From Candidatus Nomurabacteria bacterium RIFCSPLOWO2_12_FULL_40_42 (GTDB taxonomy: Bacteria > Patescibacteriota > Minisyncoccia > Phycocordibacterales > UBA9973): a stretch of 64,000 bases of DNA. The position numbers were made by a program, and so were the translations under genes. The DNA lies in NCBI GenBank assembly GCA_001786195.1, contig MFVS01000008.1, forward strand, positions 21,057-85,056, written 5' to 3'. Position 1 is the first letter of the stretch, and every line of letters begins with the position of its first letter. The notes beneath the pieces are model-generated. The model did not search any database, was not told the DNA's origin, and saw nothing but the letters and a program-made list of their open reading frames with translations. Positions 19,721 to 26,590 of the stretch are shown here, piece by piece.

Positions 19721-20869
19721 TTGGGGTCGGAAAGGCAATCTCTCGGTATTTCGTTTGTTTTTATAAAACCTAAACTCAAAATTTTAATCTCCGCCCCATT
19801 TTTGCCCTTATTTTTAGGACTTTTTTGGTTGTTAGCTATATCTACCCAGGCGGAAGCCGGATTCCCCTCTTCTATTTTTTTGGGCCCGGATGCTAATGCG
19901 CAGGTAAACTTAGATTCGGCTCAATCCAGTAAAAACCTCCAGCTCAATTCGCAAACCATGGATCTTCTTCGGGCCAATGTTTCTTCCGCCTCCATTCTGG
20001 AAAATAAAAACGATAAAAAGGGGGATAACAAAGATCAAATAGATCCAAGTGCCAACATAAATATTGTTTCTGATACCGCTATGCTTCCGGCGACCGGACC
20101 AATGGGCGTATCAGGCGGCAGGGACGTTCCTGATACCTCTTCTCTAGAAACTAGTGTGTATGTAATAAGAAAGGGTGACACTTTGTCTAGTATTGCCGAG
20201 ATGTTTGGAGTTTCGGTAGATACCATTTTGTCCGCTAACGATATGAATAAAGGAGACAAGTTAAAAGAAGGTGACACATTACTAATTTTGCCTTTTGATG
20301 CGGTGGAACATCCTGTCGCAAAAGGTGAAACTTTGAATGGAATAGCCATTAAATATAAAGTTGATCTGGAAGATATTTTAGATGCTAATAATATTGATGC
20401 AAATACAAAGCTTGTTGTTGGTGAAAGATTGATAATTCCTGGGGCGGAAATGCTAAGTGAAAATGCTCCAAGATCGGTAAATCCGAGCGTAACGCGCGGC
20501 GGGTCTCAAATTTACACCGTAGCTCCAGGATACTTTGTAAATCCAGTTCCAGGAGCTAGGAGAACTAGAGGAATTACCAAAGCGCACAACGGAGTGGATT
20601 TGGCTGCGCCGAAAGGGACTCCGATTCTTGCGGCTGCTTCCGGGACGGTTGTTATTGCTAGAAATGGTTATAATGGTGGTTTCGGAAATTATGTTGTAAT
20701 TCAGCACCCCAACGGTACAAAAACTCTCTATGCTCACATGTCTAAACTAGGAACTACTCCCGGTGCGCAAGTTTCCCAAGGAGAAATGATTGGTCGTGTT
20801 GGGAACACCGGTCGTTCTCGGGGAGATCATGCACATGTTGAAGTGTTGGGAGGCAAAAATCCTTTATAA
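19721..20869 (+). CDS. LysM-domain M23 family peptidase
   Basis: Two LysM repeats (YVIRKGDTLSSIAEMFGVSVDTIL; HPVAKGETLNGIAIKYKVDLEDIL). M23 motifs HNGVDLAAPKGTPILAAASGTV and HAHVEV. Start codon uncertain. Confidence 0.85.
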   Translation: MGSERQSLGISFVFIKPKLKILISAPFLPLFLGLFWLLAISTQAEAGFPSSIFLGPDANAQVNLDSAQSSKNLQLNSQTMDLLRANVSSASILENKNDKKGDNKDQIDPSANINIVSDTAMLPATGPMGVSGGRDVPDTSSLETSVYVIRKGDTLSSIAEMFGVSVDTILSANDMNKGDKLKEGDTLLILPFDAVEHPVAKGETLNGIAIKYKVDLEDILDANNIDANTKLVVGERLIIPGAEMLSENAPRSVNPSVTRGGSQIYTVAPGYFVNPVPGARRTRGITKAHNGVDLAAPKGTPILAAASGTVVIARNGYNGGFGNYVVIQHPNGTKTLYAHMSKLGTTPGAQVSQGEMIGRVGNTGRSRGDHAHVEVLGGKNPL

Positions 20870-20870
20870 T

Positions 20871-21620
20871 TTACTCCAAATAAGTTAAAGCGACCATCAC
20901 GCTAACACCAACCACGACTGCCACTATTTGCAACAGAGAATATTTTATTTCTTTTGTTTTATGAAGTTCAGGTATCAAGTCTGCCACGGCAACATAGATA
21001 AATCCTCCAGCGGCAATTGGCAAAAACCAAGAGGTTGAAGTTTCAGCTATGTTGCCTAAGGCAAAAAATATGATAGCACCAAGGACCGCGGCTAAGGCAG
21101 ATAAAAAATTAAGCCATAGCGCGCGGGCTTTTGTGTATCCAGAATGTATAAGCACTGCAAAGTCCCCTATCTCTTGCGGGATTTCGTGTAAAAGTACCGC
21201 TAGGGTGGTAGCTATTCCTATTGGCACGCTTACCAAAAAACTTGCTCCAATAATTATTCCGTCCATAAAGTTGTGCACTCCGTCAGAAAATAAAATTAAT
21301 TTACCCATCGGATGAAGGTGATTTTGTGCTGTATCATCTTCATGATGGTGCCAGTGTAGAAATTTTTCCACAATAAAAAAGAAAAGAATGCCGCCAATCA
21401 CCAAAATACTAGTCAGGGTTGTGTTTGCCGACTCTGCTATGGCTTCGGGTATTATATGGATGAAAGCGTCTCCGAGAAGAGCTCCTACCGCTAAACTTAT
21501 AAGCAAAAAAATGTATTTTTTCAGGATCTCTTCTCTTAAGCTCAGAGTAAAAATCCCCACAAATGAAATCAAACTTACCACCAGAACGCTTATGAATGTG
21601 TATAAATATGCTGTTGTCAT
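20871..21620 (-). CDS. zupT: ZIP-family metal transporter
   Basis: HNFMDGIIIGASF and LLHEIPQEIGDFAVL ZIP signatures, 8 TM helices. Confidence 0.8.
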   Translation of the reverse strand: MTTAYLYTFISVLVVSLISFVGIFTLSLREEILKKYIFLLISLAVGALLGDAFIHIIPEAIAESANTTLTSILVIGGILFFFIVEKFLHWHHHEDDTAQNHLHPMGKLILFSDGVHNFMDGIIIGASFLVSVPIGIATTLAVLLHEIPQEIGDFAVLIHSGYTKARALWLNFLSALAAVLGAIIFFALGNIAETSTSWFLPIAAGGFIYVAVADLIPELHKTKEIKYSLLQIVAVVVGVSVMVALTYLE

Positions 21621-21621
21621 G

Positions 21622-21692
21622 TGCGGGATGGGAGAATCGAACTCCCAACATCTGTTTGGAAAACAGAAATTTTACCATTAAACTAATCCCGC
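21622..21692 (-). tRNA. tRNA-Gly(UCC)
   Basis: Reverse complement GCGGGATTAGTTTAATGGTAAAATTTCTGTTTTCCAAACAGATGTTGGGAGTTCGATTCTCCCATCCCGCA folds as a cloverleaf. Anticodon loop TTTCCAA gives anticodon UCC. T-loop TTCGATT. No encoded CCA. Confidence 0.8.
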
Positions 21693-21702
21693 CTCGCATC
21701 AT

Positions 21703-21773
21703 TCGGGCTGCTGGGAGTCGAACCCAGCCTAAATGCTCCCAAAGCACTTGTACAACCGATATACTACAGCCCG
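21703..21773 (-). tRNA. tRNA-Pro(UGG)
   Basis: Reverse complement CGGGCTGTAGTATATCGGTTGTACAAGTGCTTTGGGAGCATTTAGGCTGGGTTCGACTCCCAGCAGCCCGA. Anticodon loop TTTGGGA gives UGG with G37. 7-bp acceptor stem and canonical T-arm. No encoded CCA. Confidence 0.8.
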
Positions 21774-21844
21774 CTTTACTTTAGACCAATCTAATATATC
21801 ATGGTTCTATTTTATTCACCATGACCCTGAGCCTGTCGAACGGG

Positions 21845-22249
21845 TCATAAAATTATATCTTTTACTACTTTTATTTTTGCGCTTCTGTCCTTTAAACTCA
21901 AAAACACCACTAGTAGATCTACTTGCCATTCTTCATCCAGATGTTTCGACAAAATATAAGTTTGAATCGCTCGAGCTAGCCTTTTTAGTTTCCATGGATG
22001 CATATTGTCCTCGGGATGATATTGATCTAAGGTTTCACGATTAACATTCTCCAATGTCTCCCGAGAAACACTTTTTACTTCAATAAAATATATCTTGTTA
22101 TCTTTTTCAGCGACAATATCTATTTCACCCCATTTTTTTGTGTAATTTCTTTCTCTTATTAAAAAGCCGTGTTTCACAAGAAACTTTACTGCTACATTTT
22201 CGCCTATCTCTCCTATTTTTTGTTTTTCTGAAGTGAAAACTTTTGGCAT
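21845..22249 (-). CDS. yraN: YraN/UPF0102-family endonuclease
   Basis: GEIGENVAVKFLVKHGFLIRERNYTKKWGEIDIVAEKDNKIYFIEVKS is the typical YraN PD-(D/E)xK core. Confidence 0.75.
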   Translation of the reverse strand: MPKVFTSEKQKIGEIGENVAVKFLVKHGFLIRERNYTKKWGEIDIVAEKDNKIYFIEVKSVSRETLENVNRETLDQYHPEDNMHPWKLKRLARAIQTYILSKHLDEEWQVDLLVVFLSLKDRSAKIKVVKDIIL

Positions 22250-22477
22250 GGCATTGTGAGTTTCACGAATAACATTCTAAATATGTTTCACATGAAACGT
22301 TTTTATTAAATTTTGTGTCTTTTATATAAATATCCTTATTTATCAACATATTTTGAATAAAATTGTTTTAAAAGACAATCTTCCACTATGTCCTTTATGA
22401 ACATTACTAACATAGTTATCCACAGTTTTTAACAAAAGCTTTATGTAATAAAGGTTTCACTAAAGGACATTATTTTG

Positions 22478-22549
22478 TGCGGCCAAGGAGAATCGAACTC
22501 CTATCTCAACCTTGGCAAGGTCGTGTTATAGCCATTAAACCATGGCCGC
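22478..22549 (-). tRNA. tRNA-Gly(GCC)
   Basis: Reverse complement GCGGCCATGGTTTAATGGCTATAACACGACCTTGCCAAGGTTGAGATAGGAGTTCGATTCTCCTTGGCCGCA. Anticodon loop TTGCCAA gives GCC. No encoded CCA. Confidence 0.8.
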
Positions 22550-22680
22550 AAATTAGTATACGATTCAAAAAAATCAAAATTATTTTTTACATTTTCATTA
22601 TAGTATTTTATTGGAAGTTATGCAATATTTACTTCGGAATTTAATTGTTTTCCGAAGTTTATTGTGTTACAATTAGTGTA

Positions 22681-23208
22681 ATGAAAAAATGTACTAAATG
22701 TAAGAAAGAAAAACCAGCTAATGAATTTAACTTCAAAATAAAGTCTTTAGGATTGCGGCAAGGTCAATGTAAAGAATGCACTAGGTTATTTGTAAAAAAT
22801 CATTATAATAAGAACAAGAGTTATTATTTGAAAAAAGCAAGGAAAAGAAATACCAAACTAGAGTTAGAATTGCTTGAGTATCTTAAAGATTATTTTTTAA
22901 AACATCCTTGCATAGATTGTGGAGAGTCTGATATAACAGTTTTGGAATTTGATCATATGGGGAAAGTCCCAAAATTTAAGGCGGTTTCTTATCTGATGAA
23001 ACATCGCTATAAATTAGAAAAAATCATAGACGAAATTAATAAGTGTGAAGTTAGATGTGCTAATTGTCATAGGAGGAAAACGGCTAAACAATTTAAGTGG
23101 TTAAAAAGTAATAATGCGCTCGTAGCTCAACGGATAGAGCACTTGTCTTCGGAACAAGGGGTTGTGGGTTCGATTCCCTCCGAGCGCACAAAAATAAGGA
23201 TAATATGA
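22681..23208 (+). CDS. HNH endonuclease-like protein; ORF reads through tRNA-Arg
   Basis: N-terminal CxxC...CxxC zinc ribbon, then LEFDHMGKVPKF...VRCANCHRRKT (HNH motif). The frame has no stop until 23208 and runs over the tRNA-Arg gene at 23116-23188, so the true C-terminus is unclear. Confidence 0.55.
   Translation: MKKCTKCKKEKPANEFNFKIKSLGLRQGQCKECTRLFVKNHYNKNKSYYLKKARKRNTKLELELLEYLKDYFLKHPCIDCGESDITVLEFDHMGKVPKFKAVSYLMKHRYKLEKIIDEINKCEVRCANCHRRKTAKQFKWLKSNNALVAQRIEHLSSEQGVVGSIPSERTKIRII
23116..23188 (+). tRNA. tRNA-Arg(UCG)
   Basis: GCGCTCGTAGCTCAACGGATAGAGCACTTGTCTTCGGAACAAGGGGTTGTGGGTTCGATTCCCTCCGAGCGCA. Anticodon loop CTTCGGA gives UCG. One T·T mismatch in the T-stem. No encoded CCA. 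Confidence 0.75.
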
Positions 23209-24842
23209 AGGATGCACTCAAAAATTTAATATCAAAAATCCCTAAAGAAGTTTCACATGTAACTGACGCGCTCGAAAAAGCTGGTTTTGAGGCATATTTG
23301 GTTGGTGGATGTGTTAGAGATCTAGTGATGGGCAGGGAACCCAAAGACTGGGATGTGACAACTAATGCTAAACCAGAACAAATAATGGAACTTTTTGAGA
23401 AGACCGTATATGAAAATACCTTTGGAACAGTAGCAGTATGTGTTCCATATGAAACACAAGACAATAATGTTTCACAAGAAACAAATTTGAATAACGTTAT
23501 TCGTGAAACGTCGAAATACAAGATAATTGAAGTGACTCCTTACAGAATTGAGGCAAAATATAGCGATCTTAGACATCCCGATGAGGTAAAATTTAGTAAT
23601 AAACTCGAAGATGATCTTCAGAGACGTGACTTTTCCATAAACGCCATGGTTTTAAACCCTAAAGGACACCTAACGGACATGTTTGGAGGTATAAAGGACA
23701 TAGAATCTAAAACATTAAGGATAGTAGGGAAGCCCGAAGATCGTTTTCGGGAAGATGCGCTTCGAATGTTGCGAGCAGTACGCTTTGCTTGCCAACTTGA
23801 TTTTTTTGTGTCATATGAAACAACTGAAAGTATTTTAAAAAATGCAGATTTAATAAAAAAAATATCCTTTGAAAGAATCCGGGATGAGTTTGAAAAAATA
23901 ATAACTAGTGCCAATCCTTCTTCTGGGTTGGTGATGCTTCAGAAATTTGGCTTGTTGAAAAATATTATTCCAGAATTAGAGGAGGGGATAGGTTGCGAAC
24001 AATTAGGAGAGCATATTTATGACGTTTGGGATCATTTACTGCATGCCCTCCAGCATGCCGCCGACAAGAATTGGTCTTTAGAAATAAGGCTGGCAGCACT
24101 TTTTCACGATATTGGTAAGTCAAAGACTAGACGATTAGCAACGCCTTCCCCGACGAAAAATTCTGGCGCCTTCGCCCTCGGAGACAAGAGGACAGGGGAC
24201 CCACGACGCATAGAATTTTTGTCGGGGCAGGCATCCATCTCAACCAAGAAGAAATACACTTTCTACGGGCATGAAGTAGTTGGCGCGCGAATGGCGAGAA
24301 AAATAATGGAGCGGTTAAAATTTCCCAAAAAAGAAATTGAATTGGTGGAAAAATTGGTTCGCAACCATATGTTCTTCTCGGATACTGAATTGATCACGCT
24401 CTCTGCGGTACGAAGAATTATTGTAAAAGTTGGTCAAGAAAATATCTGGGCCTTGATGAATGTGCGTGAGTGCGATCGAGTCGGAATGAAGAAAAAAGAA
24501 GCGCCGTACCGCTTGCGAAAATATTTTGCCATGATCGAAGAGGCCTTGCGAGACCCGATTTCTGTCGGGCAGTTAAAAATTGATGGGGAATTTATGATTA
24601 AAGAGCTTGGGATCAAGCCGGGACCTCGAATGGGGTGGATTTTGAGTGCCTTACTGGAAGAAGTATTGAACACTCCCAATAGAAACACCGTAGAAGAATT
24701 GTCTAAATTGGTTGAATCTCTAAATCTGCTCGGCGATAAAGAACTCAAAGCTCTCGGTGACAAAGGAAAAGAAAAAAAAGAAGAGCTCGAAGAAGAAGAA
24801 ATTGCCAAACTGCACCAAAAGCATGGAGTAAGAATAAATTAG
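23205..24842 (+). CDS. cca: CCA-adding tRNA nucleotidyltransferase with HD domain
   Basis: LVGGCVRDLVMGREPKDWDVTTNAKPEQIMELF polymerase head. HD motif HLLHALQHAADKNWSLEIRLAALFHDIGK. Contains an 80-bp inverted-repeat-flanked insert 24148-24227 inside the HD domain. Confidence 0.85.
   Translation: MKDALKNLISKIPKEVSHVTDALEKAGFEAYLVGGCVRDLVMGREPKDWDVTTNAKPEQIMELFEKTVYENTFGTVAVCVPYETQDNNVSQETNLNNVIRETSKYKIIEVTPYRIEAKYSDLRHPDEVKFSNKLEDDLQRRDFSINAMVLNPKGHLTDMFGGIKDIESKTLRIVGKPEDRFREDALRMLRAVRFACQLDFFVSYETTESILKNADLIKKISFERIRDEFEKIITSANPSSGLVMLQKFGLLKNIIPELEEGIGCEQLGEHIYDVWDHLLHALQHAADKNWSLEIRLAALFHDIGKSKTRRLATPSPTKNSGAFALGDKRTGDPRRIEFLSGQASISTKKKYTFYGHEVVGARMARKIMERLKFPKKEIELVEKLVRNHMFFSDTELITLSAVRRIIVKVGQENIWALMNVRECDRVGMKKKEAPYRLRKYFAMIEEALRDPISVGQLKIDGEFMIKELGIKPGPRMGWILSALLEEVLNTPNRNTVEELSKLVESLNLLGDKELKALGDKGKEKKEELEEEEIAKLHQKHGVRIN
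24148..24227. repeat. 80-bp inverted-repeat-flanked GC-rich in-frame insert in the cca HD domain
   Basis: CCCCGACGAAAAATTCT ... AGAATTTTTGTCGGGG terminal inverted repeats. Encodes RRLATPSPTKNSGAFALGDKRTGDPRRIEFLSGQ. Confidence 0.5.
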
Positions 24843-24880
24843 ATTTCAGCAATAAGAAGCGGTCGCGTACTATTGCTAAA

Positions 24881-26590
24881 TTAGTATACCTCTCGCTGAT
24901 AGCAAGTCTCGCAGTAAACTGTTTCGGGACGATCGGGGGAGTAGGAAGACATTATTTCTTTTCCACATTTGGCGCAGTTACGATTCCAAAGTTTTTGGGG
25001 ATTGCGGGATTCCATGCGCTTGCCATGGCGGCAATTAGGGCAAAGGATTGGCAAGGGGATACTGTGTTTTTTATAAAAAATCAGTTCTTCTTTGGTTATG
25101 CGAAAAGCGGTAGTGCATTGATGTCTGCATTTTCCATTATCAAAGCAAGCGATAATTTCATTAGTAATTGTGTCCGGAACATCATTTATTGAATTCGGGA
25201 CATTTACTGGGATAAGAGTCGGCGTATAGGACCGATGAATGTCTTTTTTCCATTTGAATCCGAGGCCCCGCGCCTCCTTGTCTGTTAGGGGATAATATTT
25301 TCCGGCTATGCTTTCGTTGTAAGAAGTAGAACATAATTCATTTGGGAAAAATTCTCCATATTTATAAATAATTTCTCTGGCGTCAACATATGGCAAGTCA
25401 GACATATCTTTTTTAATTTGTTCCGTTAGATTTTGGTACTCTTCTTTACTGTATGCCCTATTGAGAATCATATATTCTCCGCTTCGAACACCGACGCAAC
25501 CAAACAAATTGGACGAGCTTTGGCAAAAAGCGGTATATTCGCAGTCATGGGAAGAGTCAGTCAGAAAAACAAATTTACAATTGCGAATGTCTTCGGGGCT
25601 GATGGCCTCGTAGATGAGCTCGCTACCGCCCATGCCGAAGCAGTCGGAGATATCCTTGCTTCCAAATACCCAAGAGCTATATCTGGCTTTCTCTAAGTCC
25701 CATCCGTCAAAAACATAGTAGCAATCTTTGGAATTTTCCAAATGATCGCCTACGCAATTTACACATTTTATCTGTTCTGTATTTTTGACGATTGATTTTG
25801 ATTTTATTTCATTAAATTTCTTATCGATTTTATCCCGAACGCTTCTCTGGTCGAGTTTCAGGTTATCAATCTTCGCAAGATATGCTTCTTTTGAGAGTTG
25901 TTCTCCGAAGAAAATATTTTTTCCAGAACGCAAATTTACAACCCCAAAAACATTCTCGCAGTTGCGGCAGGCAAATGCGTAATTTGAATCAACCATGCCA
26001 ACGCACTCTTGCAGATACGAACTATTGTAATTTTTACCAGCATTTATTGTTTCGTAGCACTGTTCCGAATCGAGAACATAAGAACTATCCAAGGTTTGCC
26101 TGCAATTTTTGGCATATTGCAGGTAGGCTACATCTTCGCAGTCGCGCAAAGCAAAAGAAAGATACGCATTTTTATTAAAATAAGACTGATTGGTATATTC
26201 CGAATTTTTACAGCCGACAGTCCATATTCCCATTCGTGGCACTGTATCAAGTAGTTTTTTTATTTGAGTGAAAAAAGGAGCAGATCTATCGTATTTGAAA
26301 CCAAATGATTTGGGATCCCACTTGTCGGATAAATAACATTCGCGACAATAGACAGGGAAAGGAGTATCCTTGTCATAAATAAAAATAAAATCTTTCTTGC
26401 ATAAATCACAGGGGCGTTTGTAAAGATTACGTTCATTGCGCCAAATAAATCTCCTTTGCGCCCGGCAGTCCGGGCAGAAAGATGGCGCTGGAACTTTAAT
26501 CTTTTCGTAAAAATTTAAGTCTTCTTGCTCGATTTCAAATTTCTTCTTACAGTTTTGACAGGTTTTATTTTCCACAAACAAATTATACAC
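24881..26590 (-). CDS. Cys-rich protein with homologous N- and C-terminal tandem zinc-ribbon modules
   Basis: 569 aa. The N-terminus (CQNCKKKFEIEQEDLNFYEKIKVPAPSFCPDCRAQRR...CDLCKKDF...YCRECY) and C-terminus (CRHQC...EELIFYKKHSIPLPILCPNCRHGKR...CAKCGKEI...YCETCY) share the same pattern. More CxxC pairs lie in the central region. Confidence 0.5.
   Translation of the reverse strand: MYNLFVENKTCQNCKKKFEIEQEDLNFYEKIKVPAPSFCPDCRAQRRFIWRNERNLYKRPCDLCKKDFIFIYDKDTPFPVYCRECYLSDKWDPKSFGFKYDRSAPFFTQIKKLLDTVPRMGIWTVGCKNSEYTNQSYFNKNAYLSFALRDCEDVAYLQYAKNCRQTLDSSYVLDSEQCYETINAGKNYNSSYLQECVGMVDSNYAFACRNCENVFGVVNLRSGKNIFFGEQLSKEAYLAKIDNLKLDQRSVRDKIDKKFNEIKSKSIVKNTEQIKCVNCVGDHLENSKDCYYVFDGWDLEKARYSSWVFGSKDISDCFGMGGSELIYEAISPEDIRNCKFVFLTDSSHDCEYTAFCQSSSNLFGCVGVRSGEYMILNRAYSKEEYQNLTEQIKKDMSDLPYVDAREIIYKYGEFFPNELCSTSYNESIAGKYYPLTDKEARGLGFKWKKDIHRSYTPTLIPVNVPNSINDVPDTITNEIIACFDNGKCRHQCTTAFRITKEELIFYKKHSIPLPILCPNCRHGKRMESRNPQKLWNRNCAKCGKEIMSSYSPDRPETVYCETCYQREVY

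What the first reader, a model, noticed from the sequence alone, without database searches (positions are those of the whole stretch)
22681..23208. HNH endonuclease ORF runs through a tRNA-Arg gene, inside a tRNA island next to the CCA-adding enzyme
The HNH ORF has no stop before 23208 and covers the whole tRNA-Arg(UCG) gene (23116-23188) in-frame. The cca gene start overlaps its end. All four tRNAs here lack an encoded CCA, and the enzyme that adds it is immediately adjacent. The HNH gene may be a mobile insertion targeted to the tRNA locus, with its native stop lost.
Basis: seen in the sequence. Interest (0 to 1): 0.5.

Follow-up and report, generated by a model that had tools for sequence, protein, structure and literature searches.

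The report
Homing nuclease cassette fused to tRNA-Arg
A small selfish nuclease gene sits directly against the front of a tRNA-Arg gene, so its reading frame runs into the tRNA; the same gene-plus-tRNA unit recurs in hundreds of ultra-small (Patescibacteria) bacteria and, with other tRNAs, in phages, so the run-through in this window is a harmless side effect of a widespread mobile element.

Summary
The ORF 22681-23208 has no stop before 23206 and covers tRNA-Arg(UCG) 23116-23188 in frame. An independent assembly has the same sequence, so it is not a read error.

The read-through itself is incidental. In 80 distinct junctions of this HNH family with tRNA-Arg(UCG), 60 have the stop codon inside the tRNA: TAG at U8-A9-G10, or TAA at positions 13-15. 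Four read through the whole tRNA. The window has C13 (CAA) where relatives have T13 (TAA).

The underlying feature is a compact cassette. It consists of an inverted repeat built from the tRNA-Arg anticodon-loop sequence (CTTCGGAA/TTCCGAAG) enclosing a promoter, a probably leaderless HNH gene, and the tRNA. 79 of 80 species-level homologues lie next to tRNA-Arg(UCG). Among close relatives the same site is empty (26 loci), holds the HNH gene (13), or holds an unrelated LAGLIDADG-like ORF (6). Eleven loci keep a 5' half of tRNA-Arg that ends at the anticodon loop just upstream of the cassette. A tRNA-Pro paralogue and phage relatives have the same layout, with the repeat matching their own tRNA's anticodon loop.

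Best reading: a free-standing homing endonuclease, analogous to T4 SegB and the T5 F-Tfl enzymes. It is a new variant of a known kind.

The parts
22477..22549 (-). tRNA-Gly(GCC), the upstream neighbour and left flank of the insertion site in this clade
   Evidence: ARAGORN; Rfam 66.2 bits; conserved in both empty and occupied relatives
22597..22625 (-). Promoter-like element for tRNA-Gly on the minus strand (TTGCAT-N17-TATAAT as read on the minus strand), shared by empty and occupied sites
   Evidence: Read from the sequence; the same block ATTATAATATTT...TAATGCAA is conserved in empty sites and HNH sites. Inferred promoter, not tested.
22632..22657 (+). Inverted repeat CTTCGGAA (22632-22639) - 10 nt - TTCCGAAG (22650-22657). 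The left arm equals the tRNA-Arg(UCG) anticodon loop. The repeat encloses the -35 element.
   Evidence: As RNA the region folds at -21 kcal/mol, z -3.8. TTCGRA-N12/13-TYCGAR lies at a fixed distance from the start in 47 of 86 distinct loci by a strict pattern, with near-variants in many others. In 11 loci the left arm is the end of a recognisable tRNA-Arg 5' half.
22645..22673 (+). Cassette promoter: -35 TTGTTT (22645-22650), 17-nt spacer, TGn-extended -10 TACAAT (22668-22673). It lies 7 nt before the ATG, which predicts a leaderless mRNA.
   Evidence: Read from the sequence. A -10 hexamer matching at least 5 of 6 lies 5-10 nt (mode 6-7) before the start in 53 of 80 CPR loci, and a Shine-Dalgarno-like tetramer occurs in only 3 of 80. 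The simple consensus scan did not list it because the -35 matches only 3 of 6.
22681..23115 (+). HNH endonuclease gene proper (145 codons): N-terminal CxxC...CxxC zinc ribbon, long helix, C-terminal HNH motif (CxxC...DH...CANCH)
23064..23092 (+). Promoter-like match TTGTCA-N17-AACAAT inside the 3' end of the HNH gene, 23 nt before the tRNA. It could drive tRNA-Arg and cca independently in this window.
   Evidence: Consensus scan, 9 of 12. The -35 is forced by the CANCH codons, and the -10 is weak in most family members, so it is not conserved.
23116..23188 (+). tRNA-Arg(UCG), no encoded CCA. Its first 12-15 nt normally carry the HNH stop codon. Here C13 gives CAA, so the ORF continues.
23116..23208 (+). 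Incidental 30-codon extension of the HNH ORF: translation of the tRNA plus 6 spacer codons and TGA
   Evidence: The same tail occurs only in the minority of homologues whose tRNA lacks an in-frame stop.
23205..24842 (+). cca (CCA-adding tRNA nucleotidyltransferase), right flank of the site. Its ATG overlaps the TGA of the extended ORF, and its own AAGGA lies at 23196-23200.
   Evidence: Pfam. Synteny tRNA-Arg > cca in relatives with and without the HNH gene.

Best explanation
The window holds a free-standing HNH homing-endonuclease cassette that lives on the tRNA-Arg(UCG) gene.

**Layout (shown).** The cassette has three parts:
- an inverted repeat made of the tRNA-Arg anticodon-loop sequence and its complement, wrapped around a sigma-70-type promoter;
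- a 145-codon HNH gene with no Shine-Dalgarno sequence, whose ATG lies 7 nt after the -10;
- the complete tRNA-Arg, starting at the very next base.

The gene abuts the tRNA, so its stop codon normally lies inside the first 15 nt of the tRNA. In this window a C at tRNA position 13 removes that stop. The frame then happens to stay open to a TGA that overlaps the cca start. The extra 30 residues are an incidental tail.

**How it works (inferred).**
1. The nuclease cuts HNH-less tRNA-Arg(UCG) alleles in or near the anticodon loop.
2. Repair from an occupied allele copies in the cassette.
3. The cassette carries a replacement copy of the tRNA 5' part at its 3' end. The tRNA is therefore regenerated, and the old 5' half is left upstream as a decaying remnant.
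4. tRNA-Arg is then transcribed through the HNH gene.
5. RNase P cleavage at tRNA position +1 would cut the message between its last sense codon and its stop, keeping nuclease output low. This was proposed for T4 SegB.
6. The anticodon-loop inverted repeat over the promoter is a likely operator. The nuclease would use it to repress its own gene.
For: **Shown**
- Linkage: 72 of 80 species-level homologues have tRNA-Arg(UCG) starting 51-101 nt (mode 59-60) after the CANCH motif on the same strand. Seven more have it immediately upstream or divergent.
- Stop position: it lies inside the tRNA in 60 of 80 distinct junctions.
- Presence/absence: in cca-anchored relatives the syntenic site has a gap of 106-196 nt (empty) in 26 loci and 533-605 nt (HNH) in 13. 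In 6 loci a 739-744 nt gap holds a different ORF. The closest HNH+/HNH- pairs share 90-92% cca amino-acid identity. L100 (HNH) and L101 (empty) have identical tRNA-Arg genes.
- Separate history from the host: HNH versus cca pairwise identity has Spearman 0.45. One pair has HNH 77% and cca 50%; another has cca 90% and HNH 60%.
- An intact, selected gene: dN/dS 0.11 and invariant metal and catalytic residues.
- Remnants: tRNA-Arg 5' halves sit upstream of 11 cassettes. Each ends at the anticodon loop about 43 nt before the ATG, and each keeps its own upstream -10.
- The architecture follows the tRNA. The tRNA-Pro(UGG) paralogue in L126 reads: Pro 5' half ...CTTTGGGA-N12-TCCCAAAG-TATAAT-ATG ... 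TAG at U8A9G10 of tRNA-Pro. In phage relatives the cognate anticodon-loop 5-mer and its complement flank the promoter in 9 of 29 loci, against 0.35 expected and a maximum of 3 in 2000 permutations.
- Phage homologues sit in tRNA clusters in 69 of 80 loci, and 21 have the stop inside the next tRNA. In phage Mildred21 the HNH gene ends 1 nt before tRNA-Phe.
- Promoter geometry and the lack of a Shine-Dalgarno sequence.

**Precedent**
- T4 segB lies in a tRNA cluster and its product recognises a tRNA-gene motif. tRNA-Arg maturation cleaves between the last codon and the stop codon of segB. The T5 F-TflI/II/IV genes lie in a tRNA cluster (PMC2330249).
- HNH genes are the commonest CDS in mycobacterial tRNA arrays (PMC5966550).
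Against: - No cleavage site, transcript end or protein has been observed. Homing, the RNase P effect, leaderless translation and autorepression are all inferred.
- The complete tRNA next to the HNH gene still contains the anticodon loop. A nuclease that recognised only that loop would also cut its own allele. Such self-cutting is reported for SegB in PMC2330249, and from my memory for I-HmuI.
- The similarity of the tRNA 5' half tracks HNH similarity only weakly (rho 0.15). Carriage of a replacement 5' half is therefore not demonstrated by covariation.
- In the remnant-bearing loci, the remnant's anticodon-stem strand often does not pair with the 3' strand of the complete tRNA.
- In the window's own clade no remnant survives beyond the 8-nt loop motif.
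- A promoter-like site inside the HNH 3' end could uncouple tRNA and HNH transcription in this window.
Confidence: 0.75

Rival explanations
1. The HNH gene is a domesticated, vertically inherited host gene. It could be a tRNA-Arg-linked regulator or a defence nuclease that is often lost, and it is not currently mobile.
For: - Strong purifying selection (dN/dS 0.11).
- Very wide distribution across Patescibacteria classes, with a fixed position relative to the tRNA.
- Moderate positive correlation with host cca similarity (rho 0.45).
Against: - Patchy occupancy among relatives that share 90% cca identity.
- Discordant pairs in both directions.
- A different endonuclease-like ORF occupies the same spacer.
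- 5' half tRNA remnants mark past insertion events.
- Phage homologues occur in tRNA arrays.
- In Acidobacteria the gene lies on the other side of the tRNA.
Confidence: 0.12
2. The protein acts on RNA. It would be an anticodon-loop nuclease specific for tRNA-Arg(UCG), for example a toxin or defence effector. The linked tRNA gene would be a replacement or resistant copy.
For: - The conserved repeat is the anticodon-loop sequence, and it changes with the partner tRNA.
- Nucleases that cut tRNAs exist: the Septu defence system cleaves tRNA-Tyr (abstract of PMC13096335).
Against: - The repeat lies upstream of the predicted transcription start. It is therefore a DNA element and not part of the HNH message.
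- Remnant half-genes and empty/occupied polymorphism are DNA-level events.
- No partner immunity or sensor gene is conserved next to it.
- The closest characterised analogues are DNA homing enzymes.
Confidence: 0.06
3. The arrangement is the relic of a group I intron that once sat in the tRNA-Arg anticodon loop and carried an HNH gene. The anticodon-loop hairpin would be the old P1 helix, and the ribozyme has been lost.
For: - Group I introns, some carrying HNH genes, are common in Patescibacteria tRNA anticodon loops (PMC13011429).
- The remnant's 5' 'exon' ends in the anticodon loop and pairs with a complement about 12 nt downstream, like a P1 stem.
Against: - No intron or ribozyme match in the region.
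- There is no room for a ribozyme core. About 50 nt precede the ORF and 0 nt follow it, and the ORF is under protein-level selection.
- The downstream tRNA is complete and needs no splicing.
- The pairing lacks the characteristic exon-U/guide-G wobble (and the sequence).
Confidence: 0.05
4. The read-through is an assembly or sequencing artefact, or the HNH gene is a decaying pseudogene that has lost its stop.
For: The read-through form is rare (4 of 80).
Against: - An independent assembly is identical over the junction.
- An 80% relative shares the read-through.
- All catalytic and zinc ligands are intact.
- dN/dS is 0.11.
Confidence: 0.02

Closest known systems
Phage T4 SegB (free-standing GIY-YIG homing endonuclease in the T4 tRNA gene cluster)
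   Same: - A free-standing endonuclease gene on the same strand as, and immediately upstream of, a tRNA-Arg gene.
- It is co-transcribed with tRNAs.
- tRNA maturation cleaves between the last codon and the stop codon of the ORF.
- Its recognition site lies inside tRNA genes.
- It is present or absent among related genomes (PMC2330249).
   Different: - SegB has a GIY-YIG fold, not HNH.
- It is a phage gene within a multi-tRNA operon.
- It recognises the generic T-psi-C motif of many tRNAs, not one isoacceptor.
- No anticodon-loop inverted repeat or 5' half remnant is described for it.
Phage T5 F-TflI / F-TflII / F-TflIV, and the HNH genes of actinophage and mycobacterial tRNA arrays
   Same: - HNH-family genes interspersed in tRNA clusters (PMC2330249; PMC5966550).
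- Sequence homologues of the window protein (35-50% identity) sit in phage tRNA clusters and abut the next tRNA.
   Different: - These are in phages and plasmids, next to many different tRNAs.
- The window's subfamily is chromosomal, in Patescibacteria, and tied to a single tRNA, Arg-UCG.
- I did not test whether the T5 enzymes themselves are homologous to the window protein.
I-TevI acting as repressor of its own promoter through an operator that mimics its homing site (from my memory: Edgell et al. 2004)
   Same: The promoter of the endonuclease gene carries a copy of target-like sequence. Here that sequence is the anticodon loop, present as an inverted repeat over the -35 and the spacer.
   Different: - Binding and repression are untested here.
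- I-TevI is intron-encoded and has a GIY-YIG fold.
Group I introns with HNH genes in Patescibacteria tRNA anticodon loops (PMC13011429)
   Same: Same phylum, same kind of target (a tRNA anticodon loop) and the same nuclease superfamily.
   Different: - No ribozyme is present.
- The tRNA is restored by a duplicated 5' part, not by splicing.
- The target is tRNA-Arg(UCG), which that paper does not report as an insertion target.
Free-standing endonuclease genes in fungal mitochondria that bring a replacement gene end and leave the old end as a remnant (from my memory: Paquin, Laforest and Lang 1994, atp6 of Allomyces)
   Same: The insertion is made harmless by carrying a substitute copy of the displaced part of the host gene, and a remnant is left behind.
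   Different: - Those cases replace the 3' end of a protein-coding gene.
- Here the 5' part of a tRNA would be replaced.

Membership tests
HNH / His-Me finger (beta-beta-alpha-metal) endonucleases | Sequence motif: CxxC ... D-H (general base) ... CxxC-H metal and zinc ligands | tested here: met
   C77xxC80, D91-H92 and C126-A-N-C129-H130 are invariant in 25- and 57-sequence alignments.
HNH / His-Me finger (beta-beta-alpha-metal) endonucleases | Match to curated family profiles | tested here: inconclusive
   Pfam PF01844 gives E = 10, no match. NCBIfam gives nothing. PHROG 2255 'HNH endonuclease' gives E 4.6e-32, and PHROG 3106 gives E 2e-18.
HNH / His-Me finger (beta-beta-alpha-metal) endonucleases | Beta-beta-alpha-metal fold | tested here: met
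   [not shown]
HNH / His-Me finger (beta-beta-alpha-metal) endonucleases | Metal-dependent nuclease activity | not testable with these tools
   Needs purified protein.
Free-standing homing endonuclease genes | Gene present or absent at an otherwise conserved site among related genomes | tested here: met
   26 empty, 13 HNH and 6 other-ORF loci at the tRNA-Gly/tRNA-Arg spacer. HNH+/HNH- pairs occur at 90-92% cca identity.
Free-standing homing endonuclease genes | Evolutionary history differs from that of the flanking host genes | tested here: met
   Spearman 0.45 with strongly discordant pairs in both directions. GC is 0.27-0.31 against about 0.40 for cca.
Free-standing homing endonuclease genes | The enzyme cleaves the gene-less allele near the insertion point | not testable with these tools
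   A cut in or near the anticodon loop is inferred only from where the 5' half remnants end.
Free-standing homing endonuclease genes | Co-conversion of flanking markers | tested here: inconclusive
   The tRNA allele GCCCTTGTAGCTTAA... is seen only with the HNH gene or the other ORF, and the allele GCACCCGTAGTGAAATGG... is seen almost only at empty sites. However, tRNA-half similarity correlates only weakly with HNH similarity (rho 0.15 and 0.09).
T4 SegB-type arrangement (endonuclease ORF whose stop is separated from it by tRNA 5' processing) | The stop codon lies at or inside the 5' end of a co-oriented tRNA gene | tested here: met
   60 of 80 junctions have the stop inside the tRNA, 1 straddles the 5' end, and 4 read through the whole tRNA, including the window.
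T4 SegB-type arrangement (endonuclease ORF whose stop is separated from it by tRNA 5' processing) | GIY-YIG catalytic domain | tested here: not met
   The protein has HNH motifs and an HNH fold. It is analogous to SegB, not homologous.
T4 SegB-type arrangement (endonuclease ORF whose stop is separated from it by tRNA 5' processing) | Co-transcription with the tRNA and cleavage by RNase P | not testable with these tools
   Inferred from three points: no conserved internal promoter, no terminator, and the native tRNA promoter is replaced in occupied sites.
Group I intron-encoded endonucleases of tRNA genes | A ribozyme core surrounds the ORF and interrupts the tRNA | tested here: not met
   No intron family matched at E up to 1 in 20000-26000. 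The downstream tRNA is uninterrupted. Only about 50 nt of non-coding sequence are available.
Integrase-borne elements that target tRNA genes | A tyrosine or serine recombinase, plus duplication of the tRNA 3' part | tested here: not met
   The cassette holds only the HNH gene. The duplicated part is the 5' half.

The most novel reading that the evidence does not exclude
The cassette would represent an undescribed strategy for a mobile endonuclease gene. I call it an 'exon-replacing' homing element.

- It inserts into the anticodon loop of one specific tRNA gene.
- It neutralises the damage by carrying a new tRNA 5' part fused to its own 3' end, not by splicing. Its stop codon then lies inside the tRNA.
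- It keeps the displaced anticodon loop and an inverted copy of it around its promoter, as a target-mimic operator.

Sister lineages retargeted to other tRNAs would share this design: Pro-UGG in Patescibacteria, and Met, Lys, Cys, Thr, Trp, Val and Asn in phages. The anticodon loop would then be the address label of a whole family. This could help explain how tRNA genes are duplicated and shuffled in phage tRNA arrays.
Probability: 0.4. Interest if true: 0.75.

Novelty: new variant of a known kind. Interest (0 to 1): 0.6.

Why it matters
- **Annotation.** Gene callers will keep reporting 170-190 aa 'hypothetical proteins' that are an HNH gene plus a translated tRNA. One search lists several, all unnamed and without Pfam domains. 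The family has more than 2000 members, and Pfam and NCBIfam do not recognise it.
- **Biology of reduced genomes.** Patescibacteria genomes of about 1 Mb tolerate a selfish nuclease gene placed in the transcription unit of a tRNA.
- **An experimental system.** If the anticodon-loop targeting and 5' half replacement are real, this is a simple, very small (about 0.5 kb) element for three uses:
  - studying how homing endonucleases acquire new tRNA specificities;
  - studying how tRNA processing throttles a toxic gene;
  - studying how tRNA arrays in phages grow.

  It would also supply a panel of compact nucleases with natural 7-8 bp 'address' sequences that can be read from the genome.

Tried and rejected
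- **Pfam and NCBIfam scans of the ORF.** No usable hit.
- **PDB sequence search with a 57-sequence profile.** Nothing. Foldseek against the PDB was not significant.
- **An internal tRNA promoter in the HNH 3' end as a family feature.** Rejected. The -35 is forced by the CANCH codons, but the -10 matches only 3 of 6 in most loci, and the Asn codon is AAC in 22 of 80.
- **Covariation at loop position 37 between the repeat arms and the adjacent tRNA.** None found.
- **Correlation of tRNA 5' versus 3' half similarity with HNH similarity.** This was a test for carriage of the 5' half. The signal was too weak to use.
- **The second occupant of the spacer as a LAGLIDADG enzyme.**
  - Pfam, PHROGs and NCBIfam saw only the HTH.
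  - The PDB sequence search found nothing.
  - Only the fold comparison gave modest support.
- **Group I intron reading.** No ribozyme.
- **Sequencing-error reading.** Refuted by L242.
- **Literature searches.** None returned a description of an HNH/tRNA-Arg cassette in Patescibacteria. The library does not cover all journals.
Full report
**1. The observation**

The region 22000-24800 was read directly. The ORF listing reports an ORF at 22645(TTG)..23208 on the + strand. The alignment with homologues places the true start at ATG 22681.

ARAGORN finds four tRNAs in the window:
- Gly(UCC) at 21621-21692, minus strand
- Pro(UGG) at 21703-21773, minus strand
- Gly(GCC) at 22477-22549, minus strand
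- Arg(UCG) at 23116-23189, plus strand

All four pass Rfam's tRNA model at 54-70 bits, and tRNA-Arg scores 68.6 bits.

tRNA position 1 is the first base of a codon of the ORF. The whole tRNA is therefore translated in frame, and the first stop is TGA 23206-23208. That TGA overlaps the ATG (23205) of a gene with PolyA_pol head, RNA-binding, HD and tRNA_NucTran2_2 domains, which is cca. None of the four tRNAs encodes CCA.

An independent groundwater assembly (L242) is identical over the junction and the tRNA. An 80%-identical relative from another sample (L243) reads through in the same way.

**2. What the ORF is**

Sequence and fold evidence:
- Pfam does not recognise it: the HNH model gives E = 10. 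NCBIfam does not recognise it either.
- PHROG 2255 'HNH endonuclease' matches at E 4.6e-32.
- The big protein database holds more than 2191 homologues. Every source name listed points to Patescibacteria (Nomurabacteria, Paceibacterota), and most are 144-150 aa.
- Invariant columns give the classical pattern C77xxC80 ... D91-H92 ... C126-A-N-C129-H130, plus an N-terminal C4xxC7 ... C30xxC33 zinc ribbon.
- An AlphaFold model built from 57 sequences has pLDDT 93.5.
- Between the window and L243, dN/dS over the 145 codons is 0.11. This is a working gene, not a relic.

**3. Why it runs into the tRNA**

The C-termini of the homologues are revealing. Most end '...KWFK-x-NALVA*', and 'ALVA' is the translation of GCGCTCGTAGCT, which is tRNA positions 1-12.

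I fetched 80 loci, one genome per species, and later 80 more loci anchored on cca. Over 80 distinct HNH/tRNA-Arg junctions the stop codon is distributed as follows:

| Stop position | Junctions |
|---|---|
| Inside the tRNA | 60 |
| - TAG at tRNA U8-A9-G10 | 33 |
| - TAA at tRNA positions 13-15 | 23 |
| - other positions inside the tRNA | 4 |
| 2-38 nt upstream of the tRNA | 15 |
| Straddling the tRNA 5' end | 1 |
| After the whole tRNA (window, L001, L025, L106) | 4 |

The window is in the frame class that normally stops at positions 13-15, but its tRNA has C13, giving CAA in place of TAA. No other in-frame stop occurs in this tRNA allele, so the frame stays open until the TGA at 23206.

The phrase 'native stop lost' therefore needs rewording. 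The family never had a stop ahead of the tRNA; it borrows one from the tRNA. In this allele a single base removes it. The ATGA overlap with cca is a by-product. cca has its own AAGGA 5 nt upstream, and it stands alone in relatives whose HNH gene stops early.

**4. The family-wide link to tRNA-Arg(UCG)**

In the 80 species-level loci the arrangement is as follows:
- In 72 loci, tRNA-Arg(UCG) starts 51-101 nt (mode 59-60) after the first base of the CANCH motif, on the same strand.
- The eight exceptions are mostly still linked to the same tRNA:
  - L022 has it 113 nt upstream.
  - L048 has it divergent.
  - Four Acidobacteria loci have it ending 26-49 nt before the HNH start. One of these carries two tandem HNH copies.
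  - One Chloroflexi locus has tRNA-Lys instead.
- The taxa named in the records span Paceibacteria, Microgenomates groups, Peregrinibacteria, Gracilibacteria, Dojkabacteria and a Gemmataceae bin.

cca is a neighbour only in the Paceibacteria-like loci. It appears in two arrangements: HNH > tRNA-Arg > cca, or cca < | HNH > tRNA-Arg > UPF0102. The HNH-tRNA pair stays together while its surroundings are rearranged.

**5. Evidence that it is mobile**

Loci chosen by cca (72-81% identical to the window's) sample the site without regard to the HNH gene. Where tRNA-Gly(GCC, minus) is followed by tRNA-Arg(UCG, plus), the spacer falls into three classes:

| Spacer length | Content | Loci |
|---|---|---|
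| 106-196 nt | empty | 26 |
| 533-605 nt | HNH gene | 13 |
| 739-744 nt | a different ORF | 6 |

A further 22 loci have the tRNA pair inverted and no HNH gene.

Further points:
- Empty sites carry a clear promoter, TTGCCA-N17-TAAAAT, about 25 nt before the tRNA. In occupied sites this segment is replaced by the cassette.
- L100 (HNH) and L101 (empty) have identical tRNA-Arg genes.
- The closest HNH+/HNH- pairs share 90-92% cca amino-acid identity.
- HNH and cca pairwise identities correlate only moderately (Spearman 0.45), with discordant pairs both ways. L002/L007 have HNH 77% against cca 50%. L009/L038 have cca 90% against HNH 60%.
- The HNH gene is also more AT-rich: GC 0.27-0.31 against about 0.40 for cca.

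The 739-744 nt class holds a minus-strand ORF of 218-225 aa.
- It has an N-terminal HTH and a 'LFMAGLMVYAGEGDK' motif.
- Its 213 homologues all appear to come from Patescibacteria, judging by the source names given, and are annotated only as HTH.
- Sequence profiles do not place it.

A second endonuclease-like tenant at the same spacer is what one expects of a homing hot spot, but its identity is only tentatively supported.

**6. The upstream module and the half-tRNA remnants**

Aligning the 95 nt before each HNH start shows a conserved module in most Patescibacteria loci: CTTCGGAA, then 10-12 nt containing TTG, then TTYCGAAG, then about 8 nt, then (TG)nTATAAT, then 6-7 nt, then ATG.

- By a strict pattern, TTCGRA-N12/13-TYCGAR lies at a fixed distance from the start in 47 of 86 distinct loci. 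Many others differ by one base.
- A -10 hexamer matching at least 5 of 6 lies 5-10 nt (mode 6-7) before the start codon in 53 of 80 loci. Only 3 of 80 have a Shine-Dalgarno-like tetramer.
- Together these predict a leaderless or near-leaderless message.
- In the window the parts are: CTTCGGAA 22632-22639, -35 TTGTTT 22645-22650, TTCCGAAG 22650-22657, -10 TACAAT 22668-22673 and ATG 22681. The hairpin folds with z = -3.8.

CTTCGGA is the anticodon loop of tRNA-Arg(UCG). In 11 loci the sequence to its left is a recognisable tRNA-Arg 5' half with acceptor strand, D arm and anticodon-stem strand.
- nhmmer gives E from 6e-13 to 2e-4.
- Ten of the halves end at the loop about 43 nt before the ATG. 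The eleventh, L079, keeps only the first 20 nt.
- Each is still preceded by its own -10 box, for example GATAAAAT.

These are the front halves of older tRNA-Arg genes, cut off at the anticodon loop by the cassette.

**7. The design follows the tRNA**

Three independent cases show that the repeat is tied to the anticodon loop of the partner tRNA and is not just a TTCGAA palindrome.

- (a) In L126/L129 a 30%-identical HNH paralogue sits before tRNA-Pro(UGG). Its upstream sequence reads: tRNA-Pro 5' half ...CTTTGGGA - 12 nt - TCCCAAAG - 3 nt - TATAAT - 6 nt - ATG. Its stop is TAG at U8-A9-G10 of the complete tRNA-Pro.
- (b) Phage contigs hold at least 550 homologues at 35-50% identity, and 69 of the best 80 loci lie in tRNA clusters. 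Of 69 distinct copies, 38 have a co-oriented tRNA within 200 nt after CANCH, and 21 of those have the stop inside that tRNA.
- (c) In 29 such phage loci, the 5-nt core of the cognate anticodon loop and its reverse complement occur 10-30 nt apart upstream of the HNH gene in 9 loci: Met, Lys (two loci), Cys, Thr, Trp (two loci), Val and Asn. Reassigning tRNAs among loci gives 0.35 expected, with a maximum of 3 in 2000 permutations. One of these loci (L169, Lys) also keeps a 5' half remnant.

Cultured phages carry annotated homologues. In Streptomyces phage Mildred21 the 'HNH endonuclease' ends 1 nt before tRNA-Phe.

**8. How it most likely works**

Shown:
- the anatomy
- the linkage to one tRNA
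- the presence/absence polymorphism
- the remnants
- selection on the protein
- the tRNA-matched repeat

Inferred:
1. The enzyme cuts HNH-less tRNA-Arg(UCG) genes in or near the anticodon loop. This is where all the remnants end.
2. Repair from an occupied allele copies in the promoter, the HNH gene and the front of the tRNA. The tRNA is regenerated, and the old front half is left behind to decay. In the window's clade it has decayed down to the 8-nt loop motif.
3. tRNA-Arg must be expressed, its native promoter is gone, and no internal promoter is conserved. No terminator intervenes either. Transcription therefore runs through the HNH gene into the tRNA.
4. RNase P cleavage at tRNA +1 then removes the stop codon from the message. 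This should lower the output of a potentially toxic nuclease. The location of the stop inside the tRNA would not matter after such processing. That would explain why the read-through allele is tolerated.
5. The loop repeat straddles the -35 and fills the promoter spacer. It lies upstream of the predicted transcription start. It is therefore a DNA element and most simply an operator for the nuclease itself.

Steps 3-4 have a direct precedent. [quoted passage not shown] Step 5 parallels I-TevI autorepression (from my memory).

Weak points:
- The occupied allele keeps an intact anticodon loop, so self-cutting would have to be tolerated or prevented.
- tRNA-half covariation with the HNH gene is weak.
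- Remnant and current tRNA stems often do not match.
- In this window a 9-of-12 promoter-like site (23064-23092) might drive tRNA-Arg and cca on its own.

**9. Comparison with what is known, and novelty**

Already known:
- Free-standing homing endonucleases in tRNA clusters: SegB, the T5 F-Tfl enzymes, and the HNH genes of mycobacterial and phage tRNA arrays (PMC2330249, PMC5966550).
- HNH genes inside group I introns of Patescibacteria tRNAs (PMC13011429).

Not found in my literature searches:
- a chromosomal family dedicated to a single tRNA in Patescibacteria
- the stop-inside-the-tRNA rule
- the anticodon-loop inverted repeat over the promoter
- the 5' half remnants

The searches do not cover all journals.

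I rate the finding a new variant of a known kind. The narrow finding, an ORF running through a tRNA, is ordinary. The element behind it is of real interest to people who work on homing endonucleases, tRNA arrays and genome annotation of reduced bacteria.

Noticed in passing
L126:2075-2620 and L129 (relatives); compare window 21703-21844: A 133-aa HNH paralogue, 30% identical, sits just upstream of tRNA-Pro(UGG) with the same architecture. The layout is: tRNA-Pro 5' half remnant, CTTTGGGA-N12-TCCCAAAG, TATAAT, ATG, and stop TAG at U8A9G10 of tRNA-Pro. The window's tRNA-Pro(UGG) has only a 71-nt gap to UPF0102, so it is an empty site for that element.
   Followed up: partly
[not shown]
   Followed up: partly
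L085, L086, L090, L093, L098, L099, L102 and others (22 of 80 cca-anchored loci): The divergent pair tRNA-Gly(GCC, minus)/tRNA-Arg(UCG, plus) is inverted to Arg(minus)/Gly(plus) in front of cca, always without the HNH gene. In other genomes the HNH-tRNA-Arg unit is inverted between cca and UPF0102 (L007, L008, L015, L029, L030, L051, L075). The locus is rearranged repeatedly.
   Followed up: no
window 21618-21622: The ATG of the ZIP zinc-transporter gene (21620, minus strand) lies 1 nt after the 3' end of tRNA-Gly(UCC). This is another tRNA packed directly against a protein-coding gene, like tRNA-Arg followed by cca 16 nt later.
   Followed up: no
window 23164-23180: The window's tRNA-Arg has a U50-U64 mismatch in the T stem, flagged by Infernal. 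Relatives such as L243 have G50-U64. The independent contig L242 carries the same base.
   Followed up: partly
window 24140-24259: A GC-rich stretch (0.54, against about 0.40 for the rest of the gene) lies inside the HD domain of cca. It encodes RRLATPSPTKNSGAFALGDKRTGDPRR. cca lengths vary among relatives, so it may be a variable insertion.
   Followed up: no
L060:2752-3635; L056, L066, L071: Acidobacteria homologues lie immediately downstream of a complete tRNA-Arg(UCG), not upstream. L060 has two tandem HNH copies. A Chloroflexi homologue (L080) follows tRNA-Lys(CUU).
   Followed up: no
window 24881-26590 and relatives (for example L005:6146-8430, L087, L154): The 569-aa cysteine-rich zinc-ribbon protein downstream of cca occurs as two tandem paralogues in several relatives.
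   Followed up: no
L168, L212, L219, L225, L167, L179 (phage contigs): In phage tRNA clusters the HNH homologue is often flanked on both sides by tRNAs for the same amino acid (Lys-HNH-Lys, Pro-HNH-Pro, Arg-HNH-Arg). This hints that these nucleases duplicate tRNA genes.
   Followed up: no
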